DNA of 64,000 nt from the IMG/VR virus record IMGVR_UViG_2675903231_000002, one strand, 5' to 3'. Below, one piece after another: positions 9,848 through 63,016 of the stretch. Position numbers and translations under genes: made by a program. This stretch comes from an uncultured virus (IMG/VR IMGVR_UViG_2675903231_000002). Its lineage: Duplodnaviria > Heunggongvirae > Uroviricota > Caudoviricetes. The stretch's first letter is position 1. Each line of letters begins with the position of its first letter. Under the pieces are notes generated by a model. That model was given only the letters and a program-made list of their open reading frames with translations. It was not told where the DNA came from and made no database searches.

Positions 9848-10046
9848 GTTGCATCAGAACAACCATCTCACGGAAAGCCCAATCGAGGATTTGTTGTCAT
9901 ATTGCGGGGCCGCTTGTCAAGAAATCCGTATCAAGCATTCGAGCGAAAAAACATTTATAGCATTTGTTTTCATATGTACGGGACTCATTGGTCATCGGGA
10001 GGCAGTAACCACTGCATCAGAAAACCCAGTTAGGACTTGTATCTTG
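9848..10046 (+). CRISPR. Degenerate 3-repeat mini-array in opposite orientation to array 1
   Basis: GTTGCATCAGAA...GAGGATTTGTTGTCAT (9848-9900), ...TTTGTTTTCAT (9937-9973), ACTGCATCAGAAAACCCAGTTAGGACTTGT (10011-); 36- and 37-bp gaps. Confidence 0.55.
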
Positions 10047-10075
10047 GCTCGGGAAACCGAATGGCTGAACATCAT

Positions 10076-10235
10076 CAGTCTATCCCGGCGTGGAGACCCC
10101 TGCCTTTAGGTATGAGGAGGAAGCGCCGCCATCAGCAGTGGCATGGCTGCTACCGGCGGGCTGCTGTCAGCCAGCCTATCGTGCCAGCTGTAAGGCTAGG
10201 TGCAAGCCCCGCCCTTAAGGACTGGGGTAGCTTAC
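10076..10235 (+). mobile_element. Non-autonomous miniature IS200/IS605 derivative (PATE-like): left end fused to the tnpB 3' end and right end
   Basis: Near-identical to the reverse complement of 18790-18847 (left end) joined to 17577-17679 (tnpB 3' end and right end). Confidence 0.9.
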
Positions 10236-10288
10236 GTCGTTTTCTGGTGCAACAAGCAGGGCAATGAAATCCTTCACAACGGCCAAAG

Positions 10289-10757
10289 ATGACAACAAAT
10301 CCTCACGTAAGTTTTCTGATGCAACCCGGCGAAGGGTGGGAAAACCGGTGAGAGTAGCGAAATGGAAACAAGTTGTAACACAGGTTTTCTGATGCAACAT
10401 CGCATGATGCAACACCTTGGCCGCCCGTACATCGCATGGAAACAAGTTCTCACATAGATTTTCTGATGAAACAATCCGGGCGGTCAGTGGCTCTGGGAAG
10501 GCGATGGAAACAAGTTCTCAAGGTAGATTTTCTGATGCAATGTTGGCTGAAGACATCACCCATGTTCAAGCCGAGCTATGTAAACAAGTCCTCAAGTAGA
10601 TTTTCTGATGCAACGAGCGTCAGCCTATCGCACAGTATGAGCTCACTTTTATGTAAACAAGTCCTCGTGTAGATTTTCTGATGCAACAAGGTCATCGGTC
10701 CCGGATAGGCAGGTCTCAAGCATGTAAACAAGTCCTCATGTAGATTTTCTGTGCAAC
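10289..10757 (-). CRISPR. CRISPR array 1: 7 repeats of about 37 bp, 6 spacers of 31-37 bp, plus one older interrupted repeat ending at 10253
   Basis: Plus-strand consensus ATG(G/T)AAACAAGT(T/C)CTCAnnTAGATTTTCTGATGCAAC at 10289, 10362, 10436, 10504, 10578, 10651, 10722; directly downstream of cas6; strand inferred from cas orientation and the decay gradient. Confidence 0.92.
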
Positions 10758-10777
10758 CCTTCGTTTACGATTACGTA

Positions 10778-11605
10778 TTAGACCTCATATTCCCAGAGTT
10801 GCGTCGTATCGGATTGACACCATGCCTCCGTGTGGACAGCCCCGCCAGCGCTGAGTTGGATGCAACGCTCCCACAGTGTGCCCCATCCCCAAGTGGTTCC
10901 GGAAGCTATCCCCCATAGTGTAGCCATCTGAAGCCACACGTGACCATCTGCCACTACATCCGGCCGACCGTGATACATGACTTGGCCCACGAATCCATGA
11001 CATTCGAGTTTGTACCCCTGACGATTTGTATGTGACGTCTGCATTACAGACCCATACTGCATGCCAGGAACCAGTGAAGACTCGTCATACCAGATGAAGC
11101 TGTTGGGTGCCAGCTTCAGCGAGAACCACTCTCGTGCCATGGTGGAGAACTTCTGTCGCGTTAGTGGGATGAGCACATCCATGCGCGGCGGTTGGCGAAA
11201 GCTGAAACGGATATTCTTGCGCGCCAGGTACTTCAGTGTGTTCTCGGCGTAATAGACGGGCGTGATGAACTGCACGTACAGTGTGTCTCCTTCCGCCTCC
11301 TCGTAACGGACAGAGACGTGTTCCGCCTCCGGGTATGCGAATCGCACAACGCTTTGCATCTCTTCATCTACCGCAGGCACCCATGCGATTCGCACGTGTT
11401 GCCCATCCAGGTCAGGAAAGACACGATATGGGCTGGTCTTTCGCACGCGATTGTCCCACCAAGCGGGCATTCCTGCCGGCCGGCGGGCCAACAGGTCACC
11501 TATCTTGGATCTAACCAGACCCGCATCTGTTCCAGGAATTCGAACCACCTTTGTTTCGACCATCATTTTCTGAACAGCCTCTTTTGGGCTGAGCGTGTCA
11601 AGCAT
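10778..11605 (-). CDS. cas6: Cas6-like crRNA processing endoribonuclease
   Basis: 'VQFITPV', 'GFVGQVMY' and C-terminal G-rich loop 'WGIASGTTWGWG'; ATG overlaps the recD stop; adjacent to array. Confidence 0.75.
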   Translation of the reverse strand: MLDTLSPKEAVQKMMVETKVVRIPGTDAGLVRSKIGDLLARRPAGMPAWWDNRVRKTSPYRVFPDLDGQHVRIAWVPAVDEEMQSVVRFAYPEAEHVSVRYEEAEGDTLYVQFITPVYYAENTLKYLARKNIRFSFRQPPRMDVLIPLTRQKFSTMAREWFSLKLAPNSFIWYDESSLVPGMQYGSVMQTSHTNRQGYKLECHGFVGQVMYHGRPDVVADGHVWLQMATLWGIASGTTWGWGTLWERCIQLSAGGAVHTEAWCQSDTTQLWEYEV

Positions 11606-13637
11606 TCTGCGCTTCCTCCTCCCACACGACGGCCGCCGGTGCAAGGACTGCACCTGCCTGTTGAATCGTTCGCTCAAGTGCGGCGTTGAGGCGACGTGTA
11701 AGACGATTGTCGATTGGCGGAACCTTGGCTTCTCGCACCTGGCGTACCATTTCATCCGGGTTTTTTGCCATCACCGTCAGACTCGTCTTGGCCCGGGTTA
11801 AAGCCGTGTACAAAAGCCGCGGATCCTCATATGCCTCTGGCATCACGACAAGAACGTGGGCTCGTTCAGCGCCTTGCGCCTTGTGGATGGTGAGTGCATA
11901 TGCTAGAGACCATTCATCAATGGCTTCCATCTCGTCCAATGTGGTTTCGGTGTCATCGTCAAATCGGGCCGTGATGACGCCATCATCGACGCTTACAATG
12001 ACACCCATCTCACCGTTTTTTCGACCAGTGGTGTAGTTGGGAGCGTTCTGCACGATGCGCAAGCCCGGGCGCCATTTGACGTCGCCGCCGAGAAACCAGC
12101 TATTGATCTGCTGTTGACCAATGGTCCGCGTCTCCGTCGCATCCCGGAACGGCGTCAGAATCAGCCAATCAGTCGCATCAAGACCGCCATGTTCCTCCAC
12201 CCACTGCATGATCTTCTGCCGCCAATGCTCTTCGGAGTCTGTCTCAATGGCAATCGCATTTATTACCGGCGGATGCCATGTCCATGGCTGGTCGATGTCC
12301 CAAAACCGGTGCGCCACTTCAGCTAATGAGCCAGCTGAACGATGAGGAACCGACAGCGTTCTGGAGGCTCTTGATACGATTGGATGAGTCAGACAGGTCC
12401 GGAATGGCTGACCGAATCCGACAGGTGGCAGTTGATTCGCGTCCCCGATGAAGACCACACGCAGATTGTGGTGTGTGAGTGTGGACCACACAATCGCGTG
12501 GAAGGTTTGCAGGTCGCACATGCTGGCCTCGTCAACCACTATCCATTGGTCCTGTCCGGAGGCCGGGAACGACCCTTTCTCCACACGTGACGAATGGTTA
12601 AATAGAGCATACGCGGAGTGAATGGTGAACGCCTGAATATCTGCCACGTCACGCAAGCGCTTGGCGGCAAGGCCCGTTGGTGCAAGACCGGTAACGGCAT
12701 CGTTCATACCGAGCTTGCGGGTCGTGTCTGCCAAGGCCTTCACTAATGTGGTTTTGCCCGTCCCGGGCCCGCCTGTGACCATGGTCAAGGGCTGTGTCCA
12801 CATGGCTGCCAGGGCTTCCTCTTGTGAGGTGTCTAGCGCCAATTCACTGACCAGCGAGGACCAATTTTGCGGCAACGAAAACGAGGGCCTGCGTATGTGC
12901 TCCGCCAAGGCCTCCGCGATCTGAATTTCTGACCAGTAGGCCCACTGTGGGTACAGGCGCAGTTTTCCGCCAACTTCCTGGTGAACTGCGGGAAACGGCG
13001 TGTCGAGTCGTTTGTCAGACGGATAAATCGCCCTCCAGTTCTCAACGAGTCGGCGCGCGTATTCTTCTGCTTTGCCGTTGTGCCGGCCGAGGTACCGGGC
13101 GGCCAATTGCACGGCGGCGCTGGATTTGGCGATGCGGATCACGGAATTCCCCGATTGCCACACGTGCCCGCATGCAGCAACGAAAAATCCTCGAATCCGC
13201 TTCTCTTCCAAGCGTGTCTCGTGAGCGTACTTGGCGTCGATGATCGCCAACTCAGGCAGAGACAAGGCTTGGCCGAGTACATATGGGTTCGTCTGAATTT
13301 CCTCCACACAATGCTGTATTGACGTAGCGTGATTGTGTGCAATCTCCTCGACGGCGTTGAGCAGAGTCCCGTATGGAATGCCCGTTGATAATACCTCGTT
13401 CAAGTGTTCGTGGATGAGCCCGTGGATTTGGTTGCGGCACCACCGCGCGGTCCACTTTCGAACGGAATCAGGGATGTCCAACGGTGCATTGAGCACCCAC
13501 TGAGGAGTGGGAAACGACATGTCTTGTGTCAATGCACCTTCTTCTCTCGCTTTCATGACCGCGGCCAAAAAAATGCGTCCGTAAGGGTGCTTGTCCAGTT
13601 CCGACATCCAGTTCGACGAACCGGAGGACTTTTTCAC
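11598..13637 (-). CDS. recD: RecD/RecD2-like SF1B helicase associated with type IV Cas genes
   Basis: GGPGTGKT, LAPTGLAA, VVDEASM, IGDANQLPPV, AYALTIHKAQG, LLYTALTRA; GTG overlaps the csf3 stop. Confidence 0.92.
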   Translation of the reverse strand: MKKSSGSSNWMSELDKHPYGRIFLAAVMKAREEGALTQDMSFPTPQWVLNAPLDIPDSVRKWTARWCRNQIHGLIHEHLNEVLSTGIPYGTLLNAVEEIAHNHATSIQHCVEEIQTNPYVLGQALSLPELAIIDAKYAHETRLEEKRIRGFFVAACGHVWQSGNSVIRIAKSSAAVQLAARYLGRHNGKAEEYARRLVENWRAIYPSDKRLDTPFPAVHQEVGGKLRLYPQWAYWSEIQIAEALAEHIRRPSFSLPQNWSSLVSELALDTSQEEALAAMWTQPLTMVTGGPGTGKTTLVKALADTTRKLGMNDAVTGLAPTGLAAKRLRDVADIQAFTIHSAYALFNHSSRVEKGSFPASGQDQWIVVDEASMCDLQTFHAIVWSTLTHHNLRVVFIGDANQLPPVGFGQPFRTCLTHPIVSRASRTLSVPHRSAGSLAEVAHRFWDIDQPWTWHPPVINAIAIETDSEEHWRQKIMQWVEEHGGLDATDWLILTPFRDATETRTIGQQQINSWFLGGDVKWRPGLRIVQNAPNYTTGRKNGEMGVIVSVDDGVITARFDDDTETTLDEMEAIDEWSLAYALTIHKAQGAERAHVLVVMPEAYEDPRLLYTALTRAKTSLTVMAKNPDEMVRQVREAKVPPIDNRLTRRLNAALERTIQQAGAVLAPAAVVWEEEAQNA

Positions 13638-14305
13638 TCTGATTCCCTCCATACAGCGTCGTAACTGCGTACTCGGCACAGTACGGGCTCGTGATGGAAA
13701 TACGGTGGCTCGATGGCGTGGGCGTCAAGGATTCCTCGGAACCCGTTCTCTCTTGCATAAGATTCTGGAACGGGTCGGAGAACAAGACTGTCAACGCCAG
13801 CGATTGCGGAGTTGAGATCCGGCCGGCGTCGCAAGATTGCTCTGGCGATCCGGCCCATCCCACGCTGTCCCTTTTGCCCCACGTACATACCAGGAAGTCT
13901 CTGCGCTAGGCGAGCGAACTCGTCCACTTGCTCAGCGTCCACATCGACGAAGAAGTACAGGAGCGGGACAGACAGGTACGTGTATCGTACCATGGCACCG
14001 CGGAGAATCCCTGAGCTGGTCTCAATGGGTTTGAAAAACCACGGGGTGCCCTTGAAAACCGCTTCTTCCCCAGTTTCCATGGTTGGTGCAAAGAGTGCTG
14101 ACACCGCCCAGAACTGGCCATCTTGAGACTCGAAACGTCTCACTGGCAAGGAGATTGGTTCCCATTGGTCCGGATCGCGCCGGTTTGCCGCGTCCGGATA
14201 CAGTTCCCGCGCACGTGCTGCGAATAAGAGTGCGTCTCCCATCAAAACGCCCCTGCGCGGCAGGAAGACTGGTGCCTCCAAAAAGAGGCGGACCTCGAGG
14301 ATCAC
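13634..14305 (-). CDS. csf3: Type IV Cas5-like RAMP
   Basis: RAMP N-terminal strand, 'GQKGQRGMGRI' G-loop, 'LRPVP', 'PPYF'; position after csf2. Confidence 0.8.
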   Translation of the reverse strand: MILEVRLFLEAPVFLPRRGVLMGDALLFAARARELYPDAANRRDPDQWEPISLPVRRFESQDGQFWAVSALFAPTMETGEEAVFKGTPWFFKPIETSSGILRGAMVRYTYLSVPLLYFFVDVDAEQVDEFARLAQRLPGMYVGQKGQRGMGRIARAILRRRPDLNSAIAGVDSLVLRPVPESYARENGFRGILDAHAIEPPYFHHEPVLCRVRSYDAVWRESE

Positions 14306-15234
14306 GACACGGACACTTCCTTCATGGCGACGTAGAACGGCTCCTTATGGGTCAGGAGGAAGTGCAGCATGTCCCTGTTTTGTCTGACATACTCTGTGAA
14401 CATTGACGGATCCAGACGTTCATCTTCCGGAATTCGTTCCCAGGACACGAGGCCAAATCCGCTCTTGGATTTGCCGCCGAAAAACGGCCGGTTGCGAAGC
14501 CGCTCAATTGCCAAACCCATCATGCTCCAATCCATGGGCGTTGCATTGTCGTGGAGCGTGAAACGCACGACAAACGGATAACCAGGCAGCACATATCCGT
14601 GAGTTACCGGCATGTTGCGGAATGGGTTCTTTTTGCCCTCTTGGTCATCAGACACCACTTCAGGCAGTCCGATGAGGGAAGGCATTTCCGGCATGCGATA
14701 GGTTGTCCAAGCACCGTTGTTGGTGAAGCTGTCCTTCAGTGCAAAGTCCTCAAACCAATCGTCCGGGAGCGTGGGAAAGAGAACTCGTAGCTCGTTTGAA
14801 GCCGGATATGCGTGTCCCAGGGCGCACCGACTGGTAATAAATTGACCTCCAACGACACCACCTAGCAGACCAAACATCGGCAGCAGCTGCTTAACCTTCT
14901 CCACATCATCCAACGACAGACGCACCTCGTTTGTGATGAGCACCCCGCCACTGGTAAGCGTGTGGTACGTGATCTTCTGGCCGCGCGTTCCATGTCCGTA
15001 GAAGGACACAGGATCGATCCCCAGTTCCTCAAAGAGATACCCGGCCAACTCCCGGCGAATACGGCCGCCGAAGCTGTTGCCGGAGAGCACCGGAGCCTCC
15101 ACGGGCGCTTCCTCACCCGTGTACACTTTGAGGGTTCTCAGTATTCCGCGGGACTCACCTTCCTCTCGCCGCGATTCAATCGATTGGAACAAGGGGGTGA
15201 GAGTGCGAAAACGCAGGTACAGATCACTCGGCAT
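14302..15234 (-). CDS. csf2: Type IV Cas7-like backbone RAMP
   Basis: 'TLTPLFQ', 'PVLSGNSFGGRIRR', 'LTSGG', 'FGLLGG', 'GGKSKSGFG'. Confidence 0.85.
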   Translation of the reverse strand: MPSDLYLRFRTLTPLFQSIESRREEGESRGILRTLKVYTGEEAPVEAPVLSGNSFGGRIRRELAGYLFEELGIDPVSFYGHGTRGQKITYHTLTSGGVLITNEVRLSLDDVEKVKQLLPMFGLLGGVVGGQFITSRCALGHAYPASNELRVLFPTLPDDWFEDFALKDSFTNNGAWTTYRMPEMPSLIGLPEVVSDDQEGKKNPFRNMPVTHGYVLPGYPFVVRFTLHDNATPMDWSMMGLAIERLRNRPFFGGKSKSGFGLVSWERIPEDERLDPSMFTEYVRQNRDMLHFLLTHKEPFYVAMKEVSVS

Positions 15235-15937
15235 GGGATTCCATCTCCTTTTTCCGGTGTGTCATGATAATGGCCCGAGTCCAATCTCTTAGTGCTTCCT
15301 CTAACGGTTCGAGAATGGGATCGAGCGTACTGCGGATCTCCTTTGGCTTGGGGTACCCATTGATGCGCCAGTCATTTTCGAGCGCCGCAACGCGCTCCGC
15401 GATATCTGCTGGCGCGTACATTGGCTTGGAACGCCAAACAATGATCCAATTCGGATCGTAACAAACTTTCCCACGGAAGATGGTGTGCTTTTGCTTGTAC
15501 GATCCTTCGACCGCGACAGCCAAGAGCGGGCGAATGCGAGGAATCCTGTACCACGGAAGCTCATATGTGTCCCACGGGAAGAACGAGGTGAAATCCTCAC
15601 CTTTTGTGCCATATGCGAGGAAGCTCCACGCATTTGGTGCATTCTGCAGTCCAAATGTGAACATGAGTGCGCATGACTCACACAACCAGGGCGACATGAC
15701 TGGGAAGTAGTCATGGTCAGTAAATGTGGTCAGCAATATGTCACTTCGTGCATACGCTTGTCGTACGCGACGAGTGCAAAAGGAACACCGGGCGTCCACA
15801 TCGTGAGGGGGATGGTCGATCTTCCAGTCGGTACGAGTTTTAACGTGTTCGGCAAACAGGTCGGAAAGAAAAATCAATTTTCCACCTTCTCTGCATGTTC
15901 TATCGCAAGTTTGGGGAAGCGCTGTTCCCTGCGTCAT
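15224..15937 (-). CDS. csf1: Type IV Cas8-like large subunit
   Basis: Zn-binding CSFC...CESC pairs and 'KQKHTIF' motif; first gene of the csf operon. Confidence 0.75.
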   Translation of the reverse strand: MTQGTALPQTCDRTCREGGKLIFLSDLFAEHVKTRTDWKIDHPPHDVDARCSFCTRRVRQAYARSDILLTTFTDHDYFPVMSPWLCESCALMFTFGLQNAPNAWSFLAYGTKGEDFTSFFPWDTYELPWYRIPRIRPLLAVAVEGSYKQKHTIFRGKVCYDPNWIIVWRSKPMYAPADIAERVAALENDWRINGYPKPKEIRSTLDPILEPLEEALRDWTRAIIMTHRKKEMESHAE

Positions 15938-17543: not shown

Positions 17544-17576
17544 GTCTCATGATCCTCCTTTATCCTGCGAAATTAC

Positions 17577-18847
17577 GTCAGCTACCCCAGCCCTAAAGGG
17601 CGGGGCTTGCACCTAGCCTTACGGCTGGCACGATAGGCTGGCTGACAGCAGCCCGCCAGTAGCAGCCATGCCACTGCTGGCAAGGTACTTCCGGGCAATG
17701 TTGCGAGCCGCGTTCAAATCAGCATTCAGTTCAAATCCGCAGTTCCGGCACAAGAAGCGTGATTGCGTCCGTCGGTTAGAACGGTGGACGTATCCGCAAC
17801 ATGAGCACATCTGCGACGTATGGCGAGGGTCAATGCCAACGACAACGCAACCCTTCTCCACCGCCTTGTATTTCAGGAACGAACGTAATTGTGCAAACGT
17901 CCACGAATGCAAGCGGCGGCGGGACTCTCGTCCGCGTTGCTTGACGCGCGTGCGGATGTGATTCAAGTTCTCGACGACAATCACAGTGCCGGGTTCAACG
18001 GAATCGACGATACGCCGACTGAGAACGTGGTCGCAATCGCGGCGGAAGCGGTGAACCTTCCCGGACAGGCGGCGCAAATGCCGCTTGGCCGAGCGAGTGC
18101 CTTTCGCCTGAAGCGCACGCTTCAATCGGAAATACCTGCGGTCAATCTCTTTCCAACGCTTCTCACCGAGGAAGTTGGCGGTGGATGTGACAGCGGGATG
18201 GTTCAATCCCATGTCCACGCCGACGACATTCCCGGTTGGGGAGAAGGAGGCATCTGGAATGGTCACCACGAGATGCAGCCAAAACCGGCCCTTTCGATAG
18301 ACCAGATCGGCGCTATCGAAGCCAGTAGCTTGAGCGAGGAGACGATCCGCATGTGGATTGCGAGCGAATTCAACCGACTGACGGCTTGCAACCGTAGAAA
18401 GGCTGACAACACTCGCGTTCGGGTGAAATGTGTATGTCCGCGCATCGTACCGGATCGGGACCAAGTTCCCGTGGGGGCAAGACGTCTTGCTGCCTTTCTT
18501 CAACCGGTTCAAAGCGGACTTGACGGCCTCCGTCGCACGCACCCGCGCGGCAATCAAAAGTTGCGCAGGCAAGTCCGGATGTTCCACACGGAGAGTGCGG
18601 TACGTCTCGTGGTGCAGCGTCACACCGTTCTTACAACGCTTCTGCCAGCCAACAGCACAGACAGCGTTAAAACAAGCGGTGTGCTCCACGAGGGTCCGCA
18701 ACAGAATTTCCTCCTGTTTGGTTGTGGGTTTCAACAACAATCGGATCGTTCTCCTCATATTTCATACCCTAGCACATTTCGCAGAAAGAGGATGGCGACG
18801 CTCCTCCCCATGCCTAAAGACAGGGGTCTCCGCGCCGGTATAGACTG
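17577..18847 (-). mobile_element. IS200/IS605 family, IS1341-type (tnpB only) element 1
   Basis: Subterminal hairpins (ggagacccctgtctttaggcatgggg at left end; gccccgccctttagggctgggg at right end); ends in TGAC and is preceded by TTAT. Confidence 0.85.
17619..18758 (-). CDS. tnpB: RNA-guided endonuclease TnpB
   Basis: RuvC D-E-D (VGVDMG, VVENL, NADLNAARNI) and zinc finger CSCCG...CRNCG. Confidence 0.95.
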   Translation of the reverse strand: MRRTIRLLLKPTTKQEEILLRTLVEHTACFNAVCAVGWQKRCKNGVTLHHETYRTLRVEHPDLPAQLLIAARVRATEAVKSALNRLKKGSKTSCPHGNLVPIRYDARTYTFHPNASVVSLSTVASRQSVEFARNPHADRLLAQATGFDSADLVYRKGRFWLHLVVTIPDASFSPTGNVVGVDMGLNHPAVTSTANFLGEKRWKEIDRRYFRLKRALQAKGTRSAKRHLRRLSGKVHRFRRDCDHVLSRRIVDSVEPGTVIVVENLNHIRTRVKQRGRESRRRLHSWTFAQLRSFLKYKAVEKGCVVVGIDPRHTSQMCSCCGYVHRSNRRTQSRFLCRNCGFELNADLNAARNIARKYLASSGMAATGGLLSASLSCQP

Positions 18848-18937
18848 ATAAGATATCCGCTTACGCCGCTTTTTATGTACATCTCGTTCGCGCCCGACAG
18901 AAACATACACTTCGTGTGCGTTGGGTTCATGTGTATG

Positions 18938-20141
18938 GTCATGAACCCCAGCCCTAAAGGGCGGGGCTTGCAGTTGTAGCCTGCGCTATACCGCGTACGG
19001 CTGCATGACTTCAGCCCTACGGCGAATGTTCACCGCAGCGATGGTGTCGGCTGGGCCAGCGAACCCACATTCGACACACTCAAAATTATCCCTTGTGGGG
19101 CGATTGCGTTTGTCCGCATGACCGCAGCTTGGACATGTTCGAGATGTATTGCGCGGATCGACGAACACCACGGGCACACCCGCCAAACGTGCCTTGTACT
19201 CGATGAAGAAGCGAAGCTGATGGAATGCCCAGGAATGCTGGGTGCGACGCTGAGCCTTGCGAACCGTTATCCGGTCACGAATGCCCTTGAGATCTTCAAG
19301 TGCAATCCCGCGCCCGGTGTCTTTGGCTTTCGCAACCAGCACTTTCGCAATGCGATGGTTTACGTTGGTGGCGAAACGGGCTTCCTTGCGGCGACGCTTC
19401 TTCAGCAGACGCTTGGCAGACTTTGTGCCTTTCGATTGCAGGCGTTGGCGAAGGCGTGCGTGGCGATGGCGCAGTCCGTTCACGTGCCCTCCAGAAAACA
19501 CCTCGCCGTCGCTGTCTGTCGCGATGTTCTTAATGCCCAAGTCCACGCCAAGAAATCCATTTGGAGCACCTTGTGGTGGATCTGGGACATCCACAACGAC
19601 AGCGAGGTAGAAGGTGCCATCGCGGTAAATCAGGTCGGCTTGTCCACGAATCCGCTGGAGGCGTGCAGCCTGGTACTCGCCAAACAAAATGGGGACCAAG
19701 ATGCGGCCGCCAAGCGTTAGGATGGACACGCGATCAAGACCTTTCCAAGAAAGGAGGCGTTGGTCATATACGATGGCGCCATGCGGCTTGAATGTCGGCT
19801 TTATCGACTTGTCTCGCTTGTACGCTTCGCACGCCTTAGCGATAGCACGGACGGTCATTTGGGCTGAAAGCCCAAATTCCTTGCGGATACTGTCGTACAC
19901 GAGCTTTTGCAACCGGATCTTGTTTGCAGTGCGATGTTCGAAAGCCACTTCCGCAATCGCATTGCAAGCCGCATTGAACCGTTCCATCGTCTCAAGCAAC
20001 GCTTGGTGCTGTTCAGTTGTGGGTAGCAGCTTGACCATCAACGTCAGGTTCATGCCGTTATTATAGCACAAATCGTTCAATACAATAAGAGCGCGTTTCC
20101 TCCCCATGCCTAAAGACAGGGGCTTCCGCGCAAATCATATG
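18938..20141 (-). mobile_element. IS200/IS605 family, IS1341-type element 2
   Basis: Same terminal hairpins as element 1; right end in TGAC; left boundary approximate. Confidence 0.8.
18986..20053 (-). CDS. tnpB: RNA-guided endonuclease TnpB
   Basis: LGVDLG, IALEDL, ADTIAAVNI; CPSCG...CVECG. Confidence 0.95.
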   Translation of the reverse strand: MNLTLMVKLLPTTEQHQALLETMERFNAACNAIAEVAFEHRTANKIRLQKLVYDSIRKEFGLSAQMTVRAIAKACEAYKRDKSIKPTFKPHGAIVYDQRLLSWKGLDRVSILTLGGRILVPILFGEYQAARLQRIRGQADLIYRDGTFYLAVVVDVPDPPQGAPNGFLGVDLGIKNIATDSDGEVFSGGHVNGLRHRHARLRQRLQSKGTKSAKRLLKKRRRKEARFATNVNHRIAKVLVAKAKDTGRGIALEDLKGIRDRITVRKAQRRTQHSWAFHQLRFFIEYKARLAGVPVVFVDPRNTSRTCPSCGHADKRNRPTRDNFECVECGFAGPADTIAAVNIRRRAEVMQPYAV

Positions 20142-43891: not shown

Positions 43892-46800
43892 TTACGGCTG
43901 CGAAGGTTGGACGAAATACCACTGAGGTCGATCTGCTGTCACGAGAAAGTCGTTGTTAACGAGGTCATTCTCGCCACAATCGTCATAGGCTTTGATGGTG
44001 ACACTGATGTGTACCCCGTCAGGGAGTTTCGGCATGATGGTCTCTCCCTGCCAGAACTGCGGCAGATTGGACGCCGGGTGCATTTCCACCGTCCATGAGG
44101 TATCGCCCTGCGCGTCTACTGTGCCTACACTGGCTCCGCCGTTGACCGAAAACACCGCCTCCACCTTGGTGGGTTGTGCGTCCGGGAACTTCACCGCAAA
44201 GGCGAATGGTGCTTGCACTCGAAGCGGGATAGGTGCGTACCCGAGCATCTCATTGGTCACAGGTAGGTGCACCTGGTTTCCTGGATACTGCTGCGTCAGT
44301 TGATCTGTCGGGTTGAAAATCCCGTCCACTTCGAGATTAGTGATGGTAAGTGGCACCCTTTTTGTATCGGTCAGTTCACCGTTCGTATAGGTCTCGTAAA
44401 TCTCCGTGCCATCTCCACTTGGATCACAGCTGATCGTGGAGTACGAATCCCCTACCCTGCCTTGTCCGGTATCCGTCACCGTCACTTGATTGCTTGCTGC
44501 CAATACCACGCCTTGTTTGTCTACCAGTAGAGCAATGTACTGAAGCGATGTCCCGGGTACCGGACTGTATGGGACCGAAATGCTTAGGCCGTCCGAGTTC
44601 GGCTTCCATGTCGTGGAGACGGCCTTTTGCCACGTCTGGACAATCCGGATGTCCACTGTAGCAGAACCGCCAAGACTCTGATTCACGAAGTCAGCATCCG
44701 TTTGGACGAAGGTCACCTTGAACTGCGTCTGAGCAGGATATGTGACATTCTCCGGTAAAGCTTGCAGTGTGAAATTGTCGGGTGGCGTGACGTTGTTGAA
44801 CCACGTTACGGACACTGGCGACGATGTAGCAGAGACGTTCTGCGCCGGCGTAGTCACCGTATACGACTGTTGTTGGTAGATCGGCTGACTTGGGTTTTCC
44901 TGCAACACGTATTCCGTCCAGTTCCAGGTGCCGACCGCACCGGAAAACCAGCCGTTTGGAAGCTGCAACACATATCCAGTAGTTGTCCATCCCGACGGGT
45001 TAGACGTGGATAGTATGGTTTGTCCACCGGATGTAACAGTCAAGCTCACTCCGGCAGAATTGTTGCTTGTACTGGCAAATCCGTTATTGTTCATGGCCTC
45101 AATAATGACCTGGTGCCGTCCGGCGGGCAGAGTGATCGTGGCACTGGATGTGTTGGGTATACTGCCCCCGACACCCCCAGAGTTACCACTTTGCATGACC
45201 GGCTGACCGTCCACGTAAACCTGAGCATAGTCATTAACGTAGGGCACAGAAAGCGTGATCGACTGTGTTTGCGACAAGCTAAACGTTGATTGGAAAAAGA
45301 CTGTTCCGTTCGGCTGTGACGTCGAATTTGATACCCAAATTGAACCACCGTAGCTACCGGCTTGCGCTTGTTGAGTGAACACCGATGTCGGGACGTAACT
45401 CGGTGCATTCTGGAATGTCCAGAAGGCAAAGTCGTTTGACACCGTCCGCGTCACTGTTAGAGGTATAAACCCGCTTCCGGGCGTCAAGTTTCCCGGAAAA
45501 GGAGTAACCGTGCCCGACGAAAGAGAATACTCCGAGAGAACTATAGGAGGATTTGACTGATTCCACGGACTATAGTTCGGTGGCACATAGTACCCAATTA
45601 ACCCATTGGAATATGGATCATACGCAATATCTAACATGTCCACCGGCAATGACCATAGTTGACCGGATGGTGTGAACTCTAATGAATTAAAGTTGGAATA
45701 GAAACCTGAAGCCTGAATTCCGTTGACATATAGATTCCCAGATACAGTATCCACAACAGAGGGCGACTGATACTCATACCAAGCCTGATTGGTACTGATA
45801 TCATTGTAAGGGGACGACGGAGATTGTCTTGGATCCCACAATATCCAATAAGGGTTGTATAAATTGACACCGCCCTCAAATAGAACATCCTGATTTGCAG
45901 GGTCATAGATCAACCAACCAATATCCCCGTGACCACCAGCATTGCCAATAGGCGTCCAAGTCTTCGTGGTGAATGAATACACATAGAGATCATTGTCCAC
46001 GGAGTCTCCTTGATGACTAGCGTGAACTGATTCATAAACCAAATTCAAAGGCGGGTAATAAGTGAAACCTGCCATATGACCATCACCAAATGGTGGATGA
46101 TCAACTGGACTGGACCAAAGACCCGTTGATAAATTCAATACCGCAAATTGGCCGCTGGAGTTGTACGCGATAATGCTGTTTGTTAAGGAATTGTATCCAT
46201 TCGGTACCGCGCTCCCAACGGGAGAAGGATAGTCGGTCCAAGCCCCTGTAGCAATCTTATATGATGCAATTCCATCCGATGATTGAACCCAAACAACGCC
46301 GTTATTTGGAATACCGACTGTGTTTGGATACCCCTGGACATATGACGGTGTTGCAATAGGCGTTAGTGTCCCAGTTGAAGTATTGAATACTTCAAGTTGA
46401 CGACTTGTGGAATTGTATCCATAGACAAGCTCAGTGTAAAAAGCGGCCCCACTCAATCCTGGTATTTGCGGATTCCCAGGTTGGACCACCCGGGCGACAT
46501 ACGTATCTGTCTCCACCTGATTCTTGGTTTGCAATGCGTTAAGCACAGTCTGCCCTGGCTGGCCGGTGGCGATGGTCTGCCCCGTCGTCTGATCCACAAT
46601 GTCGATCACATACCCGGAAGGCAGATTCGCTGCTGTAGCCGTCAGCACCGATGTGTTGTTGATTGGCAGCTGCGTGGGATTCGCAGTCAATGTGATCCCA
46701 TACCAATCCACAGAGACCGTGTTGCTGCTGATCAAAGCACCCGACGTACCGGAATTCGACGAGATATAAGCCACAAACGTGTCCGTCCGCGGTATTGACT

Positions 46801-49759
46801 CCGAAACCTGCACGCTGTACGGGGTTGATAAGCTGTATCCTACTTCCTGCCCGGTGGTTTGGTTATAAATCACCAGATAATCCCCATTGGGTACGTTCTG
46901 CCCGGTGACTGTCAATGTCGTGGCCTGCCCCGCAGGAAGTTGCAACGGATCGGCTCCAAGCGAAAGTTGACTCCAAACGACAGTCTGTGTGTTCGACGGG
47001 TTCCCGACCTGCTCAAAGCCATCATTCAGGAACGCGATGAACGTGTCCGTTTCTGGTGTAAACGAAGCGTATTGAGTTGTTTCGGGTGCAGAACCCGACG
47101 AAGATACTATTTGCCCCGTCGTTTGGTCCATGATCACGAGGTTCCATCCAAACGGAATGGCCTGCGTTGTGGTTGCTGTCAGCGTCGTACTGTCGCCCGT
47201 GGCAAGGTATTTGGGATTTGCTGAAAGACTGATCGCTCCTGTCCAAGGGTTTGCCCATGACACGGACGTACCACCTGTAGCCATGGGATTGCCCGACGGA
47301 TCAAGAATGGTGGCAGTATAGTTAACTGTGATCGTTTGGCCAGCGGCAGGATGCTCAGTCTCCGGATACGTACCTGTTTGCGACGTGAGTCCGGACGCAC
47401 TCCACATGTCCGCCCCGTTTCCGTTCGGTGTGATCTCCACTGTATAGTCGGGCGGAAGAGCCACATTAACCGAGTATGAAATGGTCGATGTCTGGCCTGG
47501 CACGTTATTCACCGGATTTGCGCTCATCGTAATTGTGGGCGCAAGCCACTTCACCGTGACGGAGGATGTAGACAGCAACGTCCCCGAACTGTTGTACAGG
47601 TTGGCGGTATATTGCACGGTCGTCGTACCGCCATCTACCGGATTCTCTATCTCCGTGAACGAGTCAGACGCATTGGTATCCTTGAGCTCAGTCCACATGT
47701 GCTGCCCGCCGGAACCCATGATGGTCACGTAGTCCCCGCTCGCAAAACCCACGGTGCTATAACTGATCTGCGAGGGCTGACCTGTGAACACACTTGTCGG
47801 ATTGGCACTCAGCGTGATCGTTGGTTTAACCCACGTGACGGTCACCGGTTGCGATTTCGCTGTTGGAGGCCCAACAGTCGAGACCCCTGCATCCCATTCA
47901 TAGGCAACAAACGTCTGTGATCCTGCCGTGTTGCTCGCATAGGAAGTTGAGTACGTCCCCGAGTAAGTCACTACGCCATTGTCCACACCCGTCATCGTTA
48001 CGGTCCAATATGGCGGTAAGGAGTAATTCTTTTCATATGCCCCAATGCCTACATATTGGCCAGTTGTCTGATTGTAAATAGTTACAAAAGCGCCCGGTTT
48101 AACCTTGTCCACGGTCGCTGTAAGCGCGGTTGAGCCACCAATCTCCAAGGTCGTAGGATCCGCAGAAAGTGTTATTTCAGAGGAGGTTGGCGGCGTATAG
48201 TTCGAATCGTAAATCGGGTATGTCTGTGTGCAATTAGTGGTAGCGTCTGTAATGATGAGCGTGGCAGAATCTACTCCGCCACTGAATGTCGCTGTAATTA
48301 TGGCACTCATGCCTGCGTCGGCCGACGTTTGGGACAACTTCACAGATGGATTATCCGTCGAAAAGTTCAGTGGATCGGACGTTCTGTTGATGATCGTTAT
48401 CGTGTCCGAAGTGCTATTGATTGTCCCTTGGTTCACATCTACAAACTGGGACGGGCACGAACCCTGCGGTGCGTTCCAGGTGACAGATACGACATTGGAC
48501 GTGGCAAGAACAGAGCCACTTGGGGAGAGCAGCTCCGCCACATAATTCACAGTCTCCGCATTATTGTCCGTTGCCGTTGTCGTGGCCGACGTGGAACTGT
48601 TGGCGGTGTAGGTATTCTGTCCTCCGAGGGTAGACTTCCCCGATTGGTCGATGATTTTGATCGTGTCTGATCCAGACGGCGCATTGACGGCTGTGGCTGT
48701 CAGCGTAGATGAGTCGCCGGTATCTAAGTTGGTAGGATTCGCCGTCAACGTGATGTAGGGGCCCGGCGCTCCTGGTGTAACTGTGAGCGTCGTCGTGACC
48801 GCATTGCTCACCCGATCCACGCCGTCAGCAACCCAAGCTCGGATCGTGTAGGTCCCGGGCTGCAGCGACGAAGACGAGATCGACGAAATCTTGTCTGGAA
48901 AAGACCCCTGCGAACCATCCTCGGGTTGCATCTGTTCCTTGTCCGTCCCGCTCCCCACCAGCCACACGGATTGCCCGTTCGACTGATTCACCGCCTGGAT
49001 CGAGACATAGTGGTGAGTCGCCAGACTGTTCCACAACGGCACATTGGACGACACCGTGAAGTTCATCTGATCGCCCTGCTTCACCGTGCCGCTCTGGTTC
49101 GTGTTGGCATCGACCACGGTGACGGAGTAGGCCGTCGGAGGCGCGGACGGTTTGATGTGATAGGTGTACAGGTACTCCGGGTACGTCTGGCCGGTCGACT
49201 GGTCCGTATATGTTCCGATTGGCCCACTGACCGTCTGCGGGTCAAAAACGGCTCCGCTCTGATTGACGACGTTCGAAAACGGAACGTAGGTGTAGGAGGT
49301 GTGGTTGTAATCGTCCTTGGTTTGAATCTGCTGATTTTGGGTTTGAAGATAATTGAGAACGTAGTCCAAGTTCCCGCCAAGCCGGTTTACCCAATCCCGC
49401 ACATTGGGCGATTCGGACGGATCGGCGATAAGCAGGTAACCGTTGTTCGCGTTCGCCCCTTGCATGTCACCGAGCATGACGCCCCAGCTGCCTTGTCCGT
49501 CTCCGGCGTCCGCTTGTTCTTGGGCGATGTGGATGATTTGCCCTCTAAGTGCCGGAAATGGTCCAAACAAATTTGTATCCACTTCGACATCATCGCCGCC
49601 CATGAGGGCATACCCGCCGGATGTTTGCACCACGTATCCGTATGCGGACAGGTTATTGTTGACCGTGTAGGCGTAGGCTCCCGAATAATACAGACTGCCT
49701 ATCAAGGCGGTGAGGCCGATTCCAGCCAGCGTCCACGCACCCCGCTTGTTCATTCGCAT
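43892..49759 (-). CDS. Very large secreted/surface protein with tandem Ig-like repeats (adhesin-like)
   Basis: N-terminal signal peptide; repeated 'ITLTANPT.L..G..TLTAT...V.VTW' units; propeller-like and jelly-roll-like regions. Confidence 0.8.
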   Translation of the reverse strand: MRMNKRGAWTLAGIGLTALIGSLYYSGAYAYTVNNNLSAYGYVVQTSGGYALMGGDDVEVDTNLFGPFPALRGQIIHIAQEQADAGDGQGSWGVMLGDMQGANANNGYLLIADPSESPNVRDWVNRLGGNLDYVLNYLQTQNQQIQTKDDYNHTSYTYVPFSNVVNQSGAVFDPQTVSGPIGTYTDQSTGQTYPEYLYTYHIKPSAPPTAYSVTVVDANTNQSGTVKQGDQMNFTVSSNVPLWNSLATHHYVSIQAVNQSNGQSVWLVGSGTDKEQMQPEDGSQGSFPDKISSISSSSLQPGTYTIRAWVADGVDRVSNAVTTTLTVTPGAPGPYITLTANPTNLDTGDSSTLTATAVNAPSGSDTIKIIDQSGKSTLGGQNTYTANSSTSATTTATDNNAETVNYVAELLSPSGSVLATSNVVSVTWNAPQGSCPSQFVDVNQGTINSTSDTITIINRTSDPLNFSTDNPSVKLSQTSADAGMSAIITATFSGGVDSATLIITDATTNCTQTYPIYDSNYTPPTSSEITLSADPTTLEIGGSTALTATVDKVKPGAFVTIYNQTTGQYVGIGAYEKNYSLPPYWTVTMTGVDNGVVTYSGTYSTSYASNTAGSQTFVAYEWDAGVSTVGPPTAKSQPVTVTWVKPTITLSANPTSVFTGQPSQISYSTVGFASGDYVTIMGSGGQHMWTELKDTNASDSFTEIENPVDGGTTTVQYTANLYNSSGTLLSTSSVTVKWLAPTITMSANPVNNVPGQTSTISYSVNVALPPDYTVEITPNGNGADMWSASGLTSQTGTYPETEHPAAGQTITVNYTATILDPSGNPMATGGTSVSWANPWTGAISLSANPKYLATGDSTTLTATTTQAIPFGWNLVIMDQTTGQIVSSSGSAPETTQYASFTPETDTFIAFLNDGFEQVGNPSNTQTVVWSQLSLGADPLQLPAGQATTLTVTGQNVPNGDYLVIYNQTTGQEVGYSLSTPYSVQVSESIPRTDTFVAYISSNSGTSGALISSNTVSVDWYGITLTANPTQLPINNTSVLTATAANLPSGYVIDIVDQTTGQTIATGQPGQTVLNALQTKNQVETDTYVARVVQPGNPQIPGLSGAAFYTELVYGYNSTSRQLEVFNTSTGTLTPIATPSYVQGYPNTVGIPNNGVVWVQSSDGIASYKIATGAWTDYPSPVGSAVPNGYNSLTNSIIAYNSSGQFAVLNLSTGLWSSPVDHPPFGDGHMAGFTYYPPLNLVYESVHASHQGDSVDNDLYVYSFTTKTWTPIGNAGGHGDIGWLIYDPANQDVLFEGGVNLYNPYWILWDPRQSPSSPYNDISTNQAWYEYQSPSVVDTVSGNLYVNGIQASGFYSNFNSLEFTPSGQLWSLPVDMLDIAYDPYSNGLIGYYVPPNYSPWNQSNPPIVLSEYSLSSGTVTPFPGNLTPGSGFIPLTVTRTVSNDFAFWTFQNAPSYVPTSVFTQQAQAGSYGGSIWVSNSTSQPNGTVFFQSTFSLSQTQSITLSVPYVNDYAQVYVDGQPVMQSGNSGGVGGSIPNTSSATITLPAGRHQVIIEAMNNNGFASTSNNSAGVSLTVTSGGQTILSTSNPSGWTTTGYVLQLPNGWFSGAVGTWNWTEYVLQENPSQPIYQQQSYTVTTPAQNVSATSSPVSVTWFNNVTPPDNFTLQALPENVTYPAQTQFKVTFVQTDADFVNQSLGGSATVDIRIVQTWQKAVSTTWKPNSDGLSISVPYSPVPGTSLQYIALLVDKQGVVLAASNQVTVTDTGQGRVGDSYSTISCDPSGDGTEIYETYTNGELTDTKRVPLTITNLEVDGIFNPTDQLTQQYPGNQVHLPVTNEMLGYAPIPLRVQAPFAFAVKFPDAQPTKVEAVFSVNGGASVGTVDAQGDTSWTVEMHPASNLPQFWQGETIMPKLPDGVHISVTIKAYDDCGENDLVNNDFLVTADRPQWYFVQPSQP

Positions 49760-57955: not shown

Positions 57956-58007
57956 CTGGCAAGGTACTTTCGAGCAATGTTGCGAGCCGCGTTCAAATGA
58001 TCATTCA
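57956..58007 (-). pseudogene. tnpB 3' fragment (LNAARNIARKYLA)
   Basis: 57956-57998 matches 17677-17719 at 41/43 bp; both differences are synonymous. Confidence 0.85.
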
Positions 58008-58055
58008 AGTGATCTGATGCACAGTAGATAGCGTGCAGCAGGCCGAAAAGAGCTC

Positions 58056-59059
58056 ATGGCAACAAATTCTCACTTCGATTTTCTGATGTACCCCGTATTG
58101 CGGCCACGCTTGACCATCTTGTAGATCTGATAACAAATGCCAATATATCTTTTCTGATGTACCGCTCTTTCGGGAGCATTGTGAGCGCCTACACCCCATG
58201 GCAACTAATTGCCACATAGATTTCTCTGATGAAACCAAGACGATGGCGACCGGACTTAAGCGTGTCGACCGTCCACAGCCGTATGGTCACGTTCAAATAG
58301 TAACAACTTCTTACTCGGCTTTTCTGACGCGACTAAACCGTGGAGATCACCGTCGACATGCACGCGCCTATGGCATAAAAATTCTCACGGAGATTTTCTG
58401 GTGCAACGCGTTACGGCGCCGGACCTTGAGACTGGTTCGCCGGCTATGGAAACAAGTTCACAAGAAAGTTTTCTGATGCAACAAGATGGAGTTCGCGGCG
58501 TTCGCGGAGGCCGTCATCTGGAGATAAATTCTGAAGTAATTTTCTGGTTGTCACCGACCTGGCTAGCGCCAACTGGTGCATGCGATGGAAACAAGTTCTA
58601 ACGTAGTTTTCTGATGCAAACCTATAGACGGTACCGATGTGCCGGTGGATCACGGAATGGAAACAAGTCCTCACGTAAGTTTTCTGATTCAACATGACGC
58701 ACGGTTCCTCGAACACTCACTGGGATCGGTATGGAAACAAGTTCTCAGGTAAGTTTTCTGATGCAACGAACTCTCCCGCGCGGTCAAGCAGGCGCAAGTC
58801 AAATGGAAACAATTGCTGACATAAGTTTTCTGATGTAACTCTGTCCGGCTTCACCACGATGCGGGTCTGGATCTCATGGAAACAAGTGTTCTAACATTGG
58901 TTTTCTGATACAACGGCGCAATCAATCGGTGGCTGGCCGAGGTGCTCCAGATGGAAACAAGTTCTAACATAAGTTATCTGATGCTACAGCCCACACCCGA
59001 TCCCGCGGTTGCCTCTTTGGTTATGGAAACAAGTTCTAGCATAAGTTTTCTGATGCAAC
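58056..59059 (-). CRISPR. CRISPR array 2: about 14 repeats of the same family as array 1, decaying toward low coordinates
   Basis: Repeats at about 58056, 58127, 58198, 58297, 58370, 58446, 58518, 58585, 58657, 58731, 58803, 58876, 58951, 59023; consensus ATGGAAACAAGTTCTnACnTAAGTTTTCTGATGCAAC. Confidence 0.92.
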
Positions 59060-59088
59060 CCTTCGTTTACGATTACGTATTAGACCTC

Positions 59089-59311
59089 CCGGATTAGCAC
59101 CATGTCCCCGTGCGGACAAGACGCTCTGCTGCCTTTCTTCACGTGCTCACGAGGGTCCGCAAGAGAATTGCAATCTGCTCGATTGTGGGTTGCAATAGCA
59201 ATCGAATCGTTCTCCTCACATTTCATATGCTATCACCTTTCGCAGAAGGAGGATGACGGCGCTCCTCACCATTCTTATAGGAAAGGGTCTCCACATCGGG
59301 TATATGAACAG
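59089..59311 (-). pseudogene. Decayed IS605-type left end plus tnpB 5' fragment with internal deletion
   Basis: Translates MRRTIRLLLQPTIEQIAILLRTLV then KKGSRASCPHGDMVLIR, matching TnpB at 17619..18758; upstream DNA aligns to 18759-18847. Confidence 0.88.
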
Positions 59312-62987: not shown

Positions 62988-63016
62988 GTTCCATGTCTCC
63001 TTTTGGTTTAGATGAT

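What the first reader, a model, noticed from the sequence alone, without database searches (positions are those of the whole stretch)
10758..10840. Both arrays share a 29-bp leader abutting the same internal tnpB fragment; the cas6 tail reads through it
Seen: ccttcgtttacgattacgtattagacctc is identical at 10758-10786 and 59060-59088. Next to it, 10800-10838 encodes CPHGGMVSIRYDA in a frame different from cas6, matching TnpB CPHGNLVPIRYDA (18441-18479) and CPHGDMVLIR beside array 2. The cas6 stop codon lies inside the shared leader. Inference: both arrays descend from one array-in-tnpB ancestor, and the copy beside cas6 was joined to the operon secondarily, replacing the original cas6 3' end.
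Basis: partly seen in the sequence, partly recalled or inferred. Interest (0 to 1): 0.8.

Follow-up and report, generated by a model that had tools for sequence, protein, structure and literature searches.

The report
Transposon scar beside CRISPR array leaders
Three CRISPR arrays of a rare plasmid-borne type IV-D system share an identical 29-base leader core, and beside two of them lies the same scrap of a dead transposon gene, which at one array has replaced the natural end of the cas6 gene; this is ordinary transposon-driven decay, neatly preserved.

Summary
The 29-bp string is identical at 10758-10786 and 59060-59088. It also occurs at a third array on another contig of the same genome (C68:647-675).

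In all three it abuts the best-preserved end repeat. The arrays belong to a type IV-D CRISPR-Cas system (csf1-csf2-csf3-recD-cas6) on a conjugative element. It is therefore most likely the repeat-proximal core of the leader.

Arrays 1 and 2, but not array 3, carry beside it a remnant of the same internal part of an IS605-group tnpB. These are codons 93-106 and 86-103 of the intact copy at 17619-18758. None of 5000 shuffles reaches the observed scores. Array 2 is also bracketed by the IS left end plus codons 1-26 upstream, and by codons 344-360 behind its last repeat.

Cas6 homology and the predicted fold both stop at residue 236. The last 26 codons run through 17 unassigned bases, the tnpB remnant out of frame, 13 further bases and 9 bases of the leader core. 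So the present cas6 end is secondary.

Not shown: that whole arrays are copies (no spacer is shared), or that array 1 was imported rather than scarred in place. The interest is modest.

The parts
10758..10786 (-). 29-bp leader core of array 1; its last 9 bases (10778-10786) are also the end of the cas6 reading frame including the stop codon 10778-10780
   Evidence: Identical in three arrays; the stop codon was read.
10787..10799 (-). 13 bases between the tnpB remnant and the leader core; possibly more of the native leader
   Evidence: 7 of 11 aligned columns match the third array's flank. By my count 9 of 14 match in register; binomial p 0.002-0.008, chosen post hoc. Not significant as a local alignment.
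10800..10841 (-). tnpB remnant, codons 93-106, out of frame with cas6
   Evidence: tblastn; 0 of 5000 shuffles reach the observed score.
10842..10858 (-). 17 unassigned bases that hold the cas6/tnpB junction
   Evidence: Cas6 homology ends at residue 236, which is base 10859. The stretch shows no similarity to tnpB (alignment, my count 5 of 20).
10778..11566 (-). cas6, 262 codons; residues 1-236 are the Cas6 domain and residues 237-262 are a non-native tail
   Evidence: PADLOC Cas6 E 6e-6. Foldseek top hits are all Cas6, E 9e-9. Homologues; AlphaFold2.
10239..10757 (-). Array 1: 7 repeats plus a half repeat; the first repeat (10722-10757) has lost one base
11598..15937 (-). Type IV-D effector genes: csf1 15224-15937, csf2 14302-15234, csf3 13634-14305, recD 11598-13679
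   Evidence: PADLOC typeIV_Cas8 2.7e-6, typeIV_Cas7 2.5e-36, typeIV_Cas5 2.9e-18, typeIV_RecD (RecD_0_IVD) 6.4e-55.
17575..18849 (-). Intact reference IS: tnpB 17619-18758 (379 aa), left end up to about 18849, right end down to about 17575
   Evidence: Pfam OrfB_IS605 and Cas12f1-like_TNB. The ends are defined by where homology to the mini-IS stops.
59060..59088 (-). 29-bp leader core of array 2
59089..59142 (-). tnpB remnant, codons 86-103, touching the leader core
59143..59304 (-). tnpB codons 1-26 plus the IS left end; the 178 bases for codons 27-85 are deleted between 59142 and 59143
   Evidence: 81% identity over 151 bases to 18681-18831.
58008..59059 (-). Array 2: 14 recognisable repeats, all of the older repeat type, increasingly degenerate away from the leader core
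57956..58007 (-). tnpB remnant, codons 344-360, directly behind the last repeat fragment of array 2 and 15 bases before the start of an integrase gene (56973-57941)
   Evidence: 92% identity over 52 bases; integrase by Pfam.
10074..10237 (+). Mini-IS: 60 bases of the left end joined to the last 60 bases of tnpB plus the right end. It lies in opposite orientation against the half repeat that ends array 1.
   Evidence: 88% and 95% identity to the intact IS.

Best explanation
**What it is.** The 29 bp is the repeat-proximal core of the leader of the arrays served by a plasmid-borne type IV-D CRISPR-Cas system.

**Proposed history.**
1. A tnpB-only IS of the IS200/IS605 group came to lie upstream of one such leader, in the same orientation.
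2. An illegitimate deletion joined tnpB at about codon 106 to the leader at about position -43.
3. That single junction was inherited by the leader ends of both array 1 and array 2. Each copy then decayed separately.
   - Array 2 lost 22 bases across the junction, so that codon 103 now touches position -29. It also lost 178 bases inside tnpB.
   - At array 1, a deletion running from just after cas6 codon 236 to tnpB codon 93 removed the natural cas6 stop, the upstream leader and the front of the IS.

**Consequences.**
- cas6 is now translated for 26 extra codons through foreign DNA and stops inside the leader core.
- Array 1 can only be transcribed by read-through from the cas operon.
- The Cas6 domain itself is intact and the tail is probably a disordered appendage.
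- The leader core stays identical while its neighbours drift because it is needed, most likely for spacer integration by an adaptation complex supplied in trans.

**Shown:** the three copies, the remnants, the end of Cas6 homology and the disordered tail.

**Inferred:** the order of events, that array 1 was scarred in place, and the role of the core.
For: **System and setting**
- Type IV-D gene set.
- Conjugation and partition genes on the contig and on C68.
- Cas1 is found only on other contigs: 3 matches, on C47 twice and on C85.

**Leader end and polarity**
- The core occurs three times, always at an array end.
- Repeats next to it are the most uniform and those far from it the most degenerate, in 3 of 3 arrays. 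In C68, repeats 1-7 are 36-37 of 37 identical to the first, falling to 24-31 at repeats 9-12.
- The only sigma-70-like site found lies upstream of the core in C68, pointing into the array. None was found beside arrays 1 and 2.

**tnpB remnants**
- 0 of 5000 shuffles reach the observed scores.
- The array 1 and array 2 remnants are more alike than either is to the intact tnpB.
- Leader core 0 of 29 differences against 5 of 29 in the adjoining remnant. The expected chance of no difference is 0.004.

**cas6 end**
- Homology to the 74% homologue stops at residue 236.
- Tails of 8 complete homologues are 10-23 residues after the G-loop WG, against 35 here.
- Last predicted strand at residues 231-236; residues 241-262 have pLDDT below 50.
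- No displaced native cas6 end was found elsewhere in the genome.
Against: - No spacer is shared between arrays 1 and 2. Whatever was inherited was only the leader end, and I cannot name the event that copied it.
- The first three repeats of array 1 are of the same derived type as the third array, not array 2. This does not fit a simple tree in which arrays 1 and 2 are sisters.
- Array 2 has tnpB codons 344-360 in the right order and orientation behind its last repeat.
- Fisher tests on these short stretches are only borderline, p 0.05-0.06.
- Only one close Cas6 homologue exists, and tails in this family are not conserved. The first few residues after 236 could therefore be native.
- The direction of transcription, and so the word 'leader', rests on repeat decay and one weak promoter match. 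No RNA data were used.
Confidence: 0.55

Rival explanations
1. A leader-plus-array segment first came to lie inside a tnpB gene, as array 2 still does. A copy of that leader end was later joined to the cas operon and replaced the native array leader and the cas6 3' end.
For: Array 2 is flanked, in the right order and in one orientation, by the IS left end, codons 1-26, codons 86-103, the leader core, the array and codons 344-360. Array 1 keeps only 42 bases of tnpB. The first repeat of array 1 is damaged by a 1-base loss.
Against: The upstream and downstream tnpB pieces differ in identity to the intact IS: 38 of 204 against 4 of 52 mismatches, p 0.06. The right end of the IS is missing at array 2. 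No spacer is shared. Array 2 has only old-type repeats, whereas array 1 went on to the newer type shared with the third array. That is what one expects if array 1 stayed the working, operon-linked array. No mechanism is known to me that inserts an array into a gene in one step.
Confidence: 0.3
2. Independent events. IS copies landed separately beside the two leaders because the leader is a preferred target, and separate deletions happened to end in the same part of tnpB.
For: IS scars are frequent around arrays in this genome. A mini-IS sits in the last repeat of array 1. A multi-copy element abuts a repeat of another array at the start of contig C46 and lies 470 bases from the third array's leader.
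Against: The junctions are with internal tnpB codons 103 and 106, not with an IS end. Two independent deletions ending within 9 bases of each other in a 1275-base element are unlikely. The two remnants also share differences from the intact tnpB.
Confidence: 0.05
3. The 29 bp is not a leader but a conserved terminal element at the trailer end, for example an old partial spacer, and the arrays are read towards it.
For: No promoter-like site was found beside arrays 1 and 2. Its 29 bases are close to spacer length, 30-41 bases. Repeat orientation could not be fixed by similarity to the host's other repeats; 779 of 2000 shuffles reach the score in either orientation.
Against: Repeat uniformity is highest at this end in 3 of 3 arrays. 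Array 1 would then be read against the cas operon. A neutral old spacer would not stay identical while the repeats next to it differ at 5 of 37 positions.
Confidence: 0.05

Closest known systems
Type IV-D CRISPR-Cas (Pinilla-Redondo et al. 2020, PMC7038947; I read the passages returned by a term search in sections 11 and 17-21)
   Same: csf1, csf2 and csf3 with a RecD-family helicase in place of DinG, its own Cas6 and CRISPR arrays, no adaptation genes in the locus, carried on a plasmid-like element. The paper places IV-D in plasmids of Firmicutes.
   Different: The paper reports IV-D repeats as similar to I-B repeats. Here no significant similarity to the host's 30-nt repeats was found. This Cas6 family is very rare: 8 proteins at E up to 0.001 among 1.84 billion representatives. 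The locus has three arrays, two of them remote from the operon.
IS transposition into CRISPR-Cas loci (Nat Commun 2023, PMC10359306; search listing and start of abstract only)
   Same: Insertion sequences damage CRISPR-Cas loci and leave scars.
   Different: That paper is about insertions that inactivate cas genes. Here only decayed internal IS pieces remain, the Cas6 domain is spared, and the scar has become the coding end of cas6.
Conserved leader motifs next to the first repeat, shared by arrays that use one adaptation machinery (type I-E and IV-A3 in PMC7038947, passages in section 20)
   Same: A short block directly upstream of the first repeat is kept between arrays of one type within a cell. 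The host's own arrays show this too.
   Different: No binding factor or integrase is known for this block. It does not resemble the leaders of the host arrays that have Cas1 nearby.
Non-autonomous deletion derivatives of IS200/IS605 elements, with the ends kept and the gene lost (recalled, not looked up)
   Same: The 164-base element at 10074-10237 keeps the left end and the right end with the last 60 bases of tnpB.
   Different: Only one copy is in the genome. It sits in a CRISPR repeat.

Membership tests
Type IV-D CRISPR-Cas | Csf1, Csf2 (Cas7) and Csf3 (Cas5) effector genes | tested here: met
   PADLOC typeIV_Cas8 2.7e-6, typeIV_Cas7 2.5e-36, typeIV_Cas5 2.9e-18.
Type IV-D CRISPR-Cas | RecD-family helicase in place of DinG | tested here: met
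   PADLOC typeIV_RecD (RecD_0_IVD) 6.4e-55. Pfam AAA_30 and UvrD_C_2.
Type IV-D CRISPR-Cas | Own Cas6 and an adjacent CRISPR array | tested here: met
   cas6 at 10778-11566, with the array starting 20 bases after its stop.
Type IV-D CRISPR-Cas | No cas1/cas2 in the locus; carried on a plasmid-like element | tested here: met
   The 3 Cas1 matches in the genome are on contigs C47 and C85, none on C49. ParA, T4SS pilin, VirB4/TraG-like ATPase and actin-like partition protein are on the contig. Whether the contig is a free plasmid or an integrated element was not tested.
Cas6 endoribonuclease | Two RRM-like domains with a glycine-rich loop near the C-terminus | tested here: met
   AlphaFold2 mean pLDDT 83.5. 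Foldseek ranks 1-26 shown in the PDB search are all Cas6 entries, including a type IV Cas6 (6njy), best E 8.9e-9. The G-loop motif GxxSGTTWGWG is conserved in the alignment.
Cas6 endoribonuclease | Cleaves its own repeat RNA | not testable with these tools
   Needs an in vitro cleavage assay. An invariant His at residue 179 is present, but its role is not shown.
IS200/IS605-group tnpB element | TnpB with OrfB_IS605 and the zinc-ribbon/TNB domain | tested here: met
   Pfam PF01385 3.3e-10 and PF07282 2.3e-23 for 17619-18758.
IS200/IS605-group tnpB element | Defined left and right ends with subterminal hairpins; Y1 transposase in the element or in trans | tested here: inconclusive
   Ends were delimited only by homology between the intact IS and the mini-IS. 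Hairpins were seen by eye and not folded. There is no tnpA in the element. The 3 Y1 transposase matches in the genome are fragments, two of them at contig ends.
CRISPR leader | Lies at the end where new repeats are added and is conserved among arrays of one type | tested here: met
   Uniform repeats adjoin it in 3 of 3 arrays. It is identical in 3 of 3 arrays.
CRISPR leader | Carries the promoter of the array | tested here: inconclusive
   One sigma-70-like site lies about 130 bases upstream of the first repeat in C68. None was found at arrays 1 and 2. The scan is crude and no RNA data were used.

The most novel reading that the evidence does not exclude
Array 2 is, or recently was, a CRISPR array carried as cargo inside an IS200/IS605-type element. 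Its layout would be left end, dead tnpB front, leader core, array, tnpB tail, right end. The right end was separated from it by a 48-kb inversion. Such a unit could be moved by a Y1 transposase supplied in trans, giving a way for orphan arrays to spread on plasmids. The hint is that the tnpB tail behind array 2 stops at IS position 17677, while the right-end piece of the mini-IS beside array 1, in inverted orientation, starts at 17679.
Probability: 0.08. Interest if true: 0.65.

Novelty: new member of a known kind. Interest (0 to 1): 0.3.

Why it matters
- **A minimal leader element to test.** Type IV-D systems are rare and untested, and it is not known what their arrays need in order to be fed with spacers. 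Here 29 bases stay identical in three arrays while both neighbours drift. The neighbouring repeats differ at 5 of 37 positions and the tnpB remnants at 5 of 29. This points to a small element for spacer-integration assays.
- **Annotation.** The cas6 fusion shows that the annotated C-terminus is not part of the enzyme. That matters to anyone who expresses this protein.
- **Otherwise ordinary.** The finding documents IS-driven erosion of a plasmid defence locus.

Tried and rejected
**Fetching the DNA of the closest Cas6 homologue (P0002, on a 4239-base contig).** This failed.
- Two metagenome-contig scans found no relative.
- Two genome-contig scans gave nothing, then one MAG contig that ends 24 bases after the match.
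- Viral contigs gave nothing with the Cas6 alignment, and nothing with the 29-bp pattern.

**Genome searches with Cas6.**
- 2 of 61 relatives had a match.
- 2 of 64 genomes of the order had a match.
- 1 of 401 genomes of the class had a match, namely the window's own genome.
- The only foreign hit, G019, is cut by a contig end 6 residues after the last conserved motif.

**The plasmid collection.** No match for Cas6, for Csf2 or for the third array with its leader.

**Other searches.**
- G019 holds no similar repeats.
- Rfam gave only a sub-threshold HEARO hit, E 0.34.
- GC skew is uninformative about an inversion.
- Integrase homologues in relatives and on contig C27 have no IS left end upstream. 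The inversion idea therefore gained no support.
- No cas6 remnant lies upstream of the third array.
- Leaders of the host's other arrays do not resemble the 29 bp.
- Similarity of the IV-D repeat to the host's 30-nt repeat is at chance level in both orientations.

**Sequencing runs.**
- Run X2, a soil metagenome, holds only a 151-base contig inside cas6 (10865-11015). It says nothing about the junction.

**Dropped rows and rejected impressions.**
- P0010 (E 9.6e-4, three short stretches) was left out of the Cas6 alignment.
- My first impression that the inverted repeat remnant at 9849-10047 shares a spacer with array 1 was not borne out.

Full report
**Setting.** The window is the first 64 kb of a 91-kb contig (C49) of a 3.79-Mb genome in 95 contigs. 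On the minus strand lies a type IV-D CRISPR-Cas operon (PADLOC):
- csf1, 15224-15937
- csf2, 14302-15234
- csf3, 13634-14305
- a RecD-type helicase, 11598-13679 (typeIV_RecD, 6.4e-55)
- cas6, 10778-11566

The contig also carries ParA, an actin-like partition protein, a T4SS pilin, a VirB4/TraG-like ATPase and a lytic transglycosylase. It is therefore a conjugative plasmid or integrative element. This matches where Pinilla-Redondo et al. (PMC7038947, passages read) place subtype IV-D. Cas1 is found only on other contigs: 3 matches, on C47 twice and on C85. The arrays near those loci have unrelated repeats and leaders.

**The observation.** The 29-bp string is identical at 10758-10786 and 59060-59088. 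A genome-wide BLAST finds one more copy, at C68:647-675. In all three places it touches an end repeat of an array with the same 37-nt repeat family. The repeats next to it are the most uniform and those far from it are degenerate:
- In C68, repeats 1-7 are 36-37 of 37 identical to the first, and repeats 9-12 are 24-31 of 37.
- Array 2 decays in the same direction.
- Array 1 has three repeats of the C68 type, then a 38-nt transitional repeat and three of the older type.

New repeats are added at the leader, so the 29 bp marks the leader end. This agrees with the strand of the cas operon at array 1. It also agrees with the only sigma-70-like site found, about 130 bases upstream in C68 and pointing into the array. 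No such site was found beside arrays 1 and 2. The direction is still an inference, because I have no RNA data.

**The tnpB remnants.** An intact tnpB-only IS lies at 17575-18849, with tnpB at 17619-18758 carrying the Pfam domains OrfB_IS605 and Cas12f1-like_TNB. tblastn with this protein finds the following pieces:
- codons 93-106 at 10841-10800
- codons 86-103 at 59142-59089
- codons 1-24 at 59219-59148
- codons 344-360 at 58008-57958
- codons 361-378 at 10134-10187, on the other strand

At DNA level, 59143-59292 matches 18681-18831 at 81%. That stretch covers the IS left end and the first 26 codons. In addition, 57956-58007 matches 17677-17728 at 92%.

Shuffling tests on the 84 bases upstream of each leader core give 0 of 5000 shuffles for array 1 against tnpB, array 1 against array 2, and array 2 against tnpB. 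The flank of the third array is at chance level against all of them. The array 1 and array 2 remnants are 24 of 29 identical and are more alike than either is to the intact gene. They are therefore best read as copies of one decayed fragment.

The junctions differ, however. Array 1 keeps 9 more tnpB bases and 13 further bases before the core. Those further bases match the third array's flank at 7 of 11 aligned columns, or 9 of 14 in register by my count (p 0.002-0.008, chosen post hoc). They may therefore be native leader. On that reading, array 2 has lost 22 bases across an original junction at about -43.

**cas6.** The frame 10778-11566 gives 262 residues.
- A search of 5.8 billion clustered proteins finds only itself and one homologue, P0002 (74% identical).
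- The alignment to P0002 runs without gaps to residue 236 (ERCI against ERCV) and stops there. P0002 then ends after 6 unrelated residues, whereas the window goes on for 26.
- A profile search of 1.84 billion representatives finds 8 proteins at E up to 0.001.
- In the alignment of 10 sequences (P0010 was left out, and the G019 sequence is cut by its contig end), the 8 complete homologues have 10-23 residues after the conserved WG of the glycine-rich loop. The window has 35. The tails are not alike.
- AlphaFold2 on this alignment gives mean pLDDT 83.5. The last strand is at residues 231-236, and residues 241-262 have pLDDT below 50.
- The model's best PDB matches are all Cas6, including a type IV Cas6.

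The last 26 codons are encoded as follows:
- 17 unassigned bases, 10842-10858
- the tnpB remnant read out of frame
- the 13 further bases
- 9 bases of the leader core, including the stop at 10778-10780

At least the last 21 codons are thus foreign DNA, so the natural stop is gone. A contig assembled independently from the probable source run covers 10757-12100 with no difference. Its loose ends at 10786 and 10796 are the flanks of array 2 and of C68, as expected for three leader copies. This run is not independent data.

**What is not supported.**
- No spacer is shared among the three arrays (best local score 11). The arrays as wholes are therefore not demonstrable copies, and only the leader end with its scar is shared by arrays 1 and 2.
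- The third array has the same core with a different upstream sequence, so the core does not owe its existence to tnpB.
- Array 1 shares its derived repeat type, and even a 38-nt transitional repeat, with the third array rather than with array 2. That cuts across the grouping given by the scar and points to exchange between leader ends.
- The two tnpB halves around array 2 differ in identity to the intact IS: 38 of 204 against 4 of 52 mismatches, p 0.06. They may come from different IS copies.
I lean to the latter, because array 1 continued to evolve with the active array while array 2 froze.

**Why the core is kept.** Between arrays 1 and 2 the core has 0 of 29 differences, while the adjoining remnant has 5 of 29. 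Between array 2 and C68 the first repeats differ at 5 of 37. The chance of no difference at the remnant's rate is 0.004, though Fisher tests on such short stretches give only p 0.05-0.06. Selection on a repeat-proximal leader motif is the simplest reading. It would parallel the conserved Cas1-Cas2 and IHF sites that PMC7038947 describes for IV-A3 and I-E leaders. Gene conversion between leader ends is the alternative.

**Side observation.** The piece of tnpB behind array 2 ends at IS position 17677. The right-end piece of a 164-base mini-IS beside array 1, in inverted orientation, begins at 17679. An inversion of 10134-57955 with a 2-base overlap would make them contiguous and give array 2 a complete IS right end. 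Relatives and composition gave no support for this. I keep it as the boldest reading, at low odds.

**Verdict.** This is a well-preserved but ordinary case of IS-driven erosion in a rare type IV-D locus.

Noticed in passing
G000 contig C68:647-1513 (locus L009): A third array of the same repeat family, with the same 29-bp core and 7 nearly identical leader-side repeats. It looks like the currently active array, yet it lies on another contig that carries a coupling-protein-like gene, ParA-like and T2SSE-type ATPases.
   Followed up: partly
window 10074-10237 (+): A 164-base mini-IS (60 bases of left end plus 105 bases of tnpB tail and right end) abuts a half repeat at the far end of array 1. 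The flank next to its right end, where a TnpB guide RNA would take its guide (recalled biology), is CRISPR repeat sequence.
   Followed up: partly
window 9849-10047 (+): About three degenerate repeats in the orientation opposite to array 1, tail to tail with it. One carries the same rare ending (GGATTTGTTGTCAT) as the last full repeat of array 1. No spacer similarity was found.
   Followed up: partly
window 57956 and 10133/10134: Two breakpoints in tnpB-derived DNA fall within 2 bases of each other in IS coordinates (17677 and 17679), 48 kb apart and inverted. A large inversion is possible but unproven.
   Followed up: partly
window 10505-10542 and C68:1193-1230: Array 1 repeat 4 and C68 repeat 8 share a 38-nt variant with an extra C (CCTTGAGAAC) at the switch from old-type to new-type repeats. 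The flanking spacers are unrelated. This suggests that the first repeats of separate arrays evolved in concert.
   Followed up: no
array 2 spacer 13 (window about 58093-58126) and C68 spacer 10 (C68:1377-1415): Partial matches within the same genome: 23 of 34 bases exact at C70:46388-46410, and 34 of 38 at C69:35736-35773. These are possible targets on other elements of the cell.
   Followed up: no
starts of contigs C68, C26, C32, C46, C47, C82, C84: A shared 95-176-base end of a multi-copy element. In C46 it abuts a repeat of the host's 30-nt array, and in C68 it lies about 470 bases from the leader core.
   Followed up: partly
window 18986-20107 (-): A second tnpB, 36% identical to the first, lies directly beside it. 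Its downstream hairpin shares a 28-base exact match with the right end of the first IS.
   Followed up: no
window 61243-63754 (-): A cluster with ThiF-like E1, JAB plus prokaryotic ubiquitin-like, and E2-like domains.
   Followed up: no
window 43892-49924 (-): A 2010-residue open frame with no Pfam match at E up to 1e-4.
   Followed up: no
window 59223-59699 (-): The frame of a PIN-domain gene runs into the IS left end beside array 2, so the IS appears to have landed at or in its 3' end.
   Followed up: no
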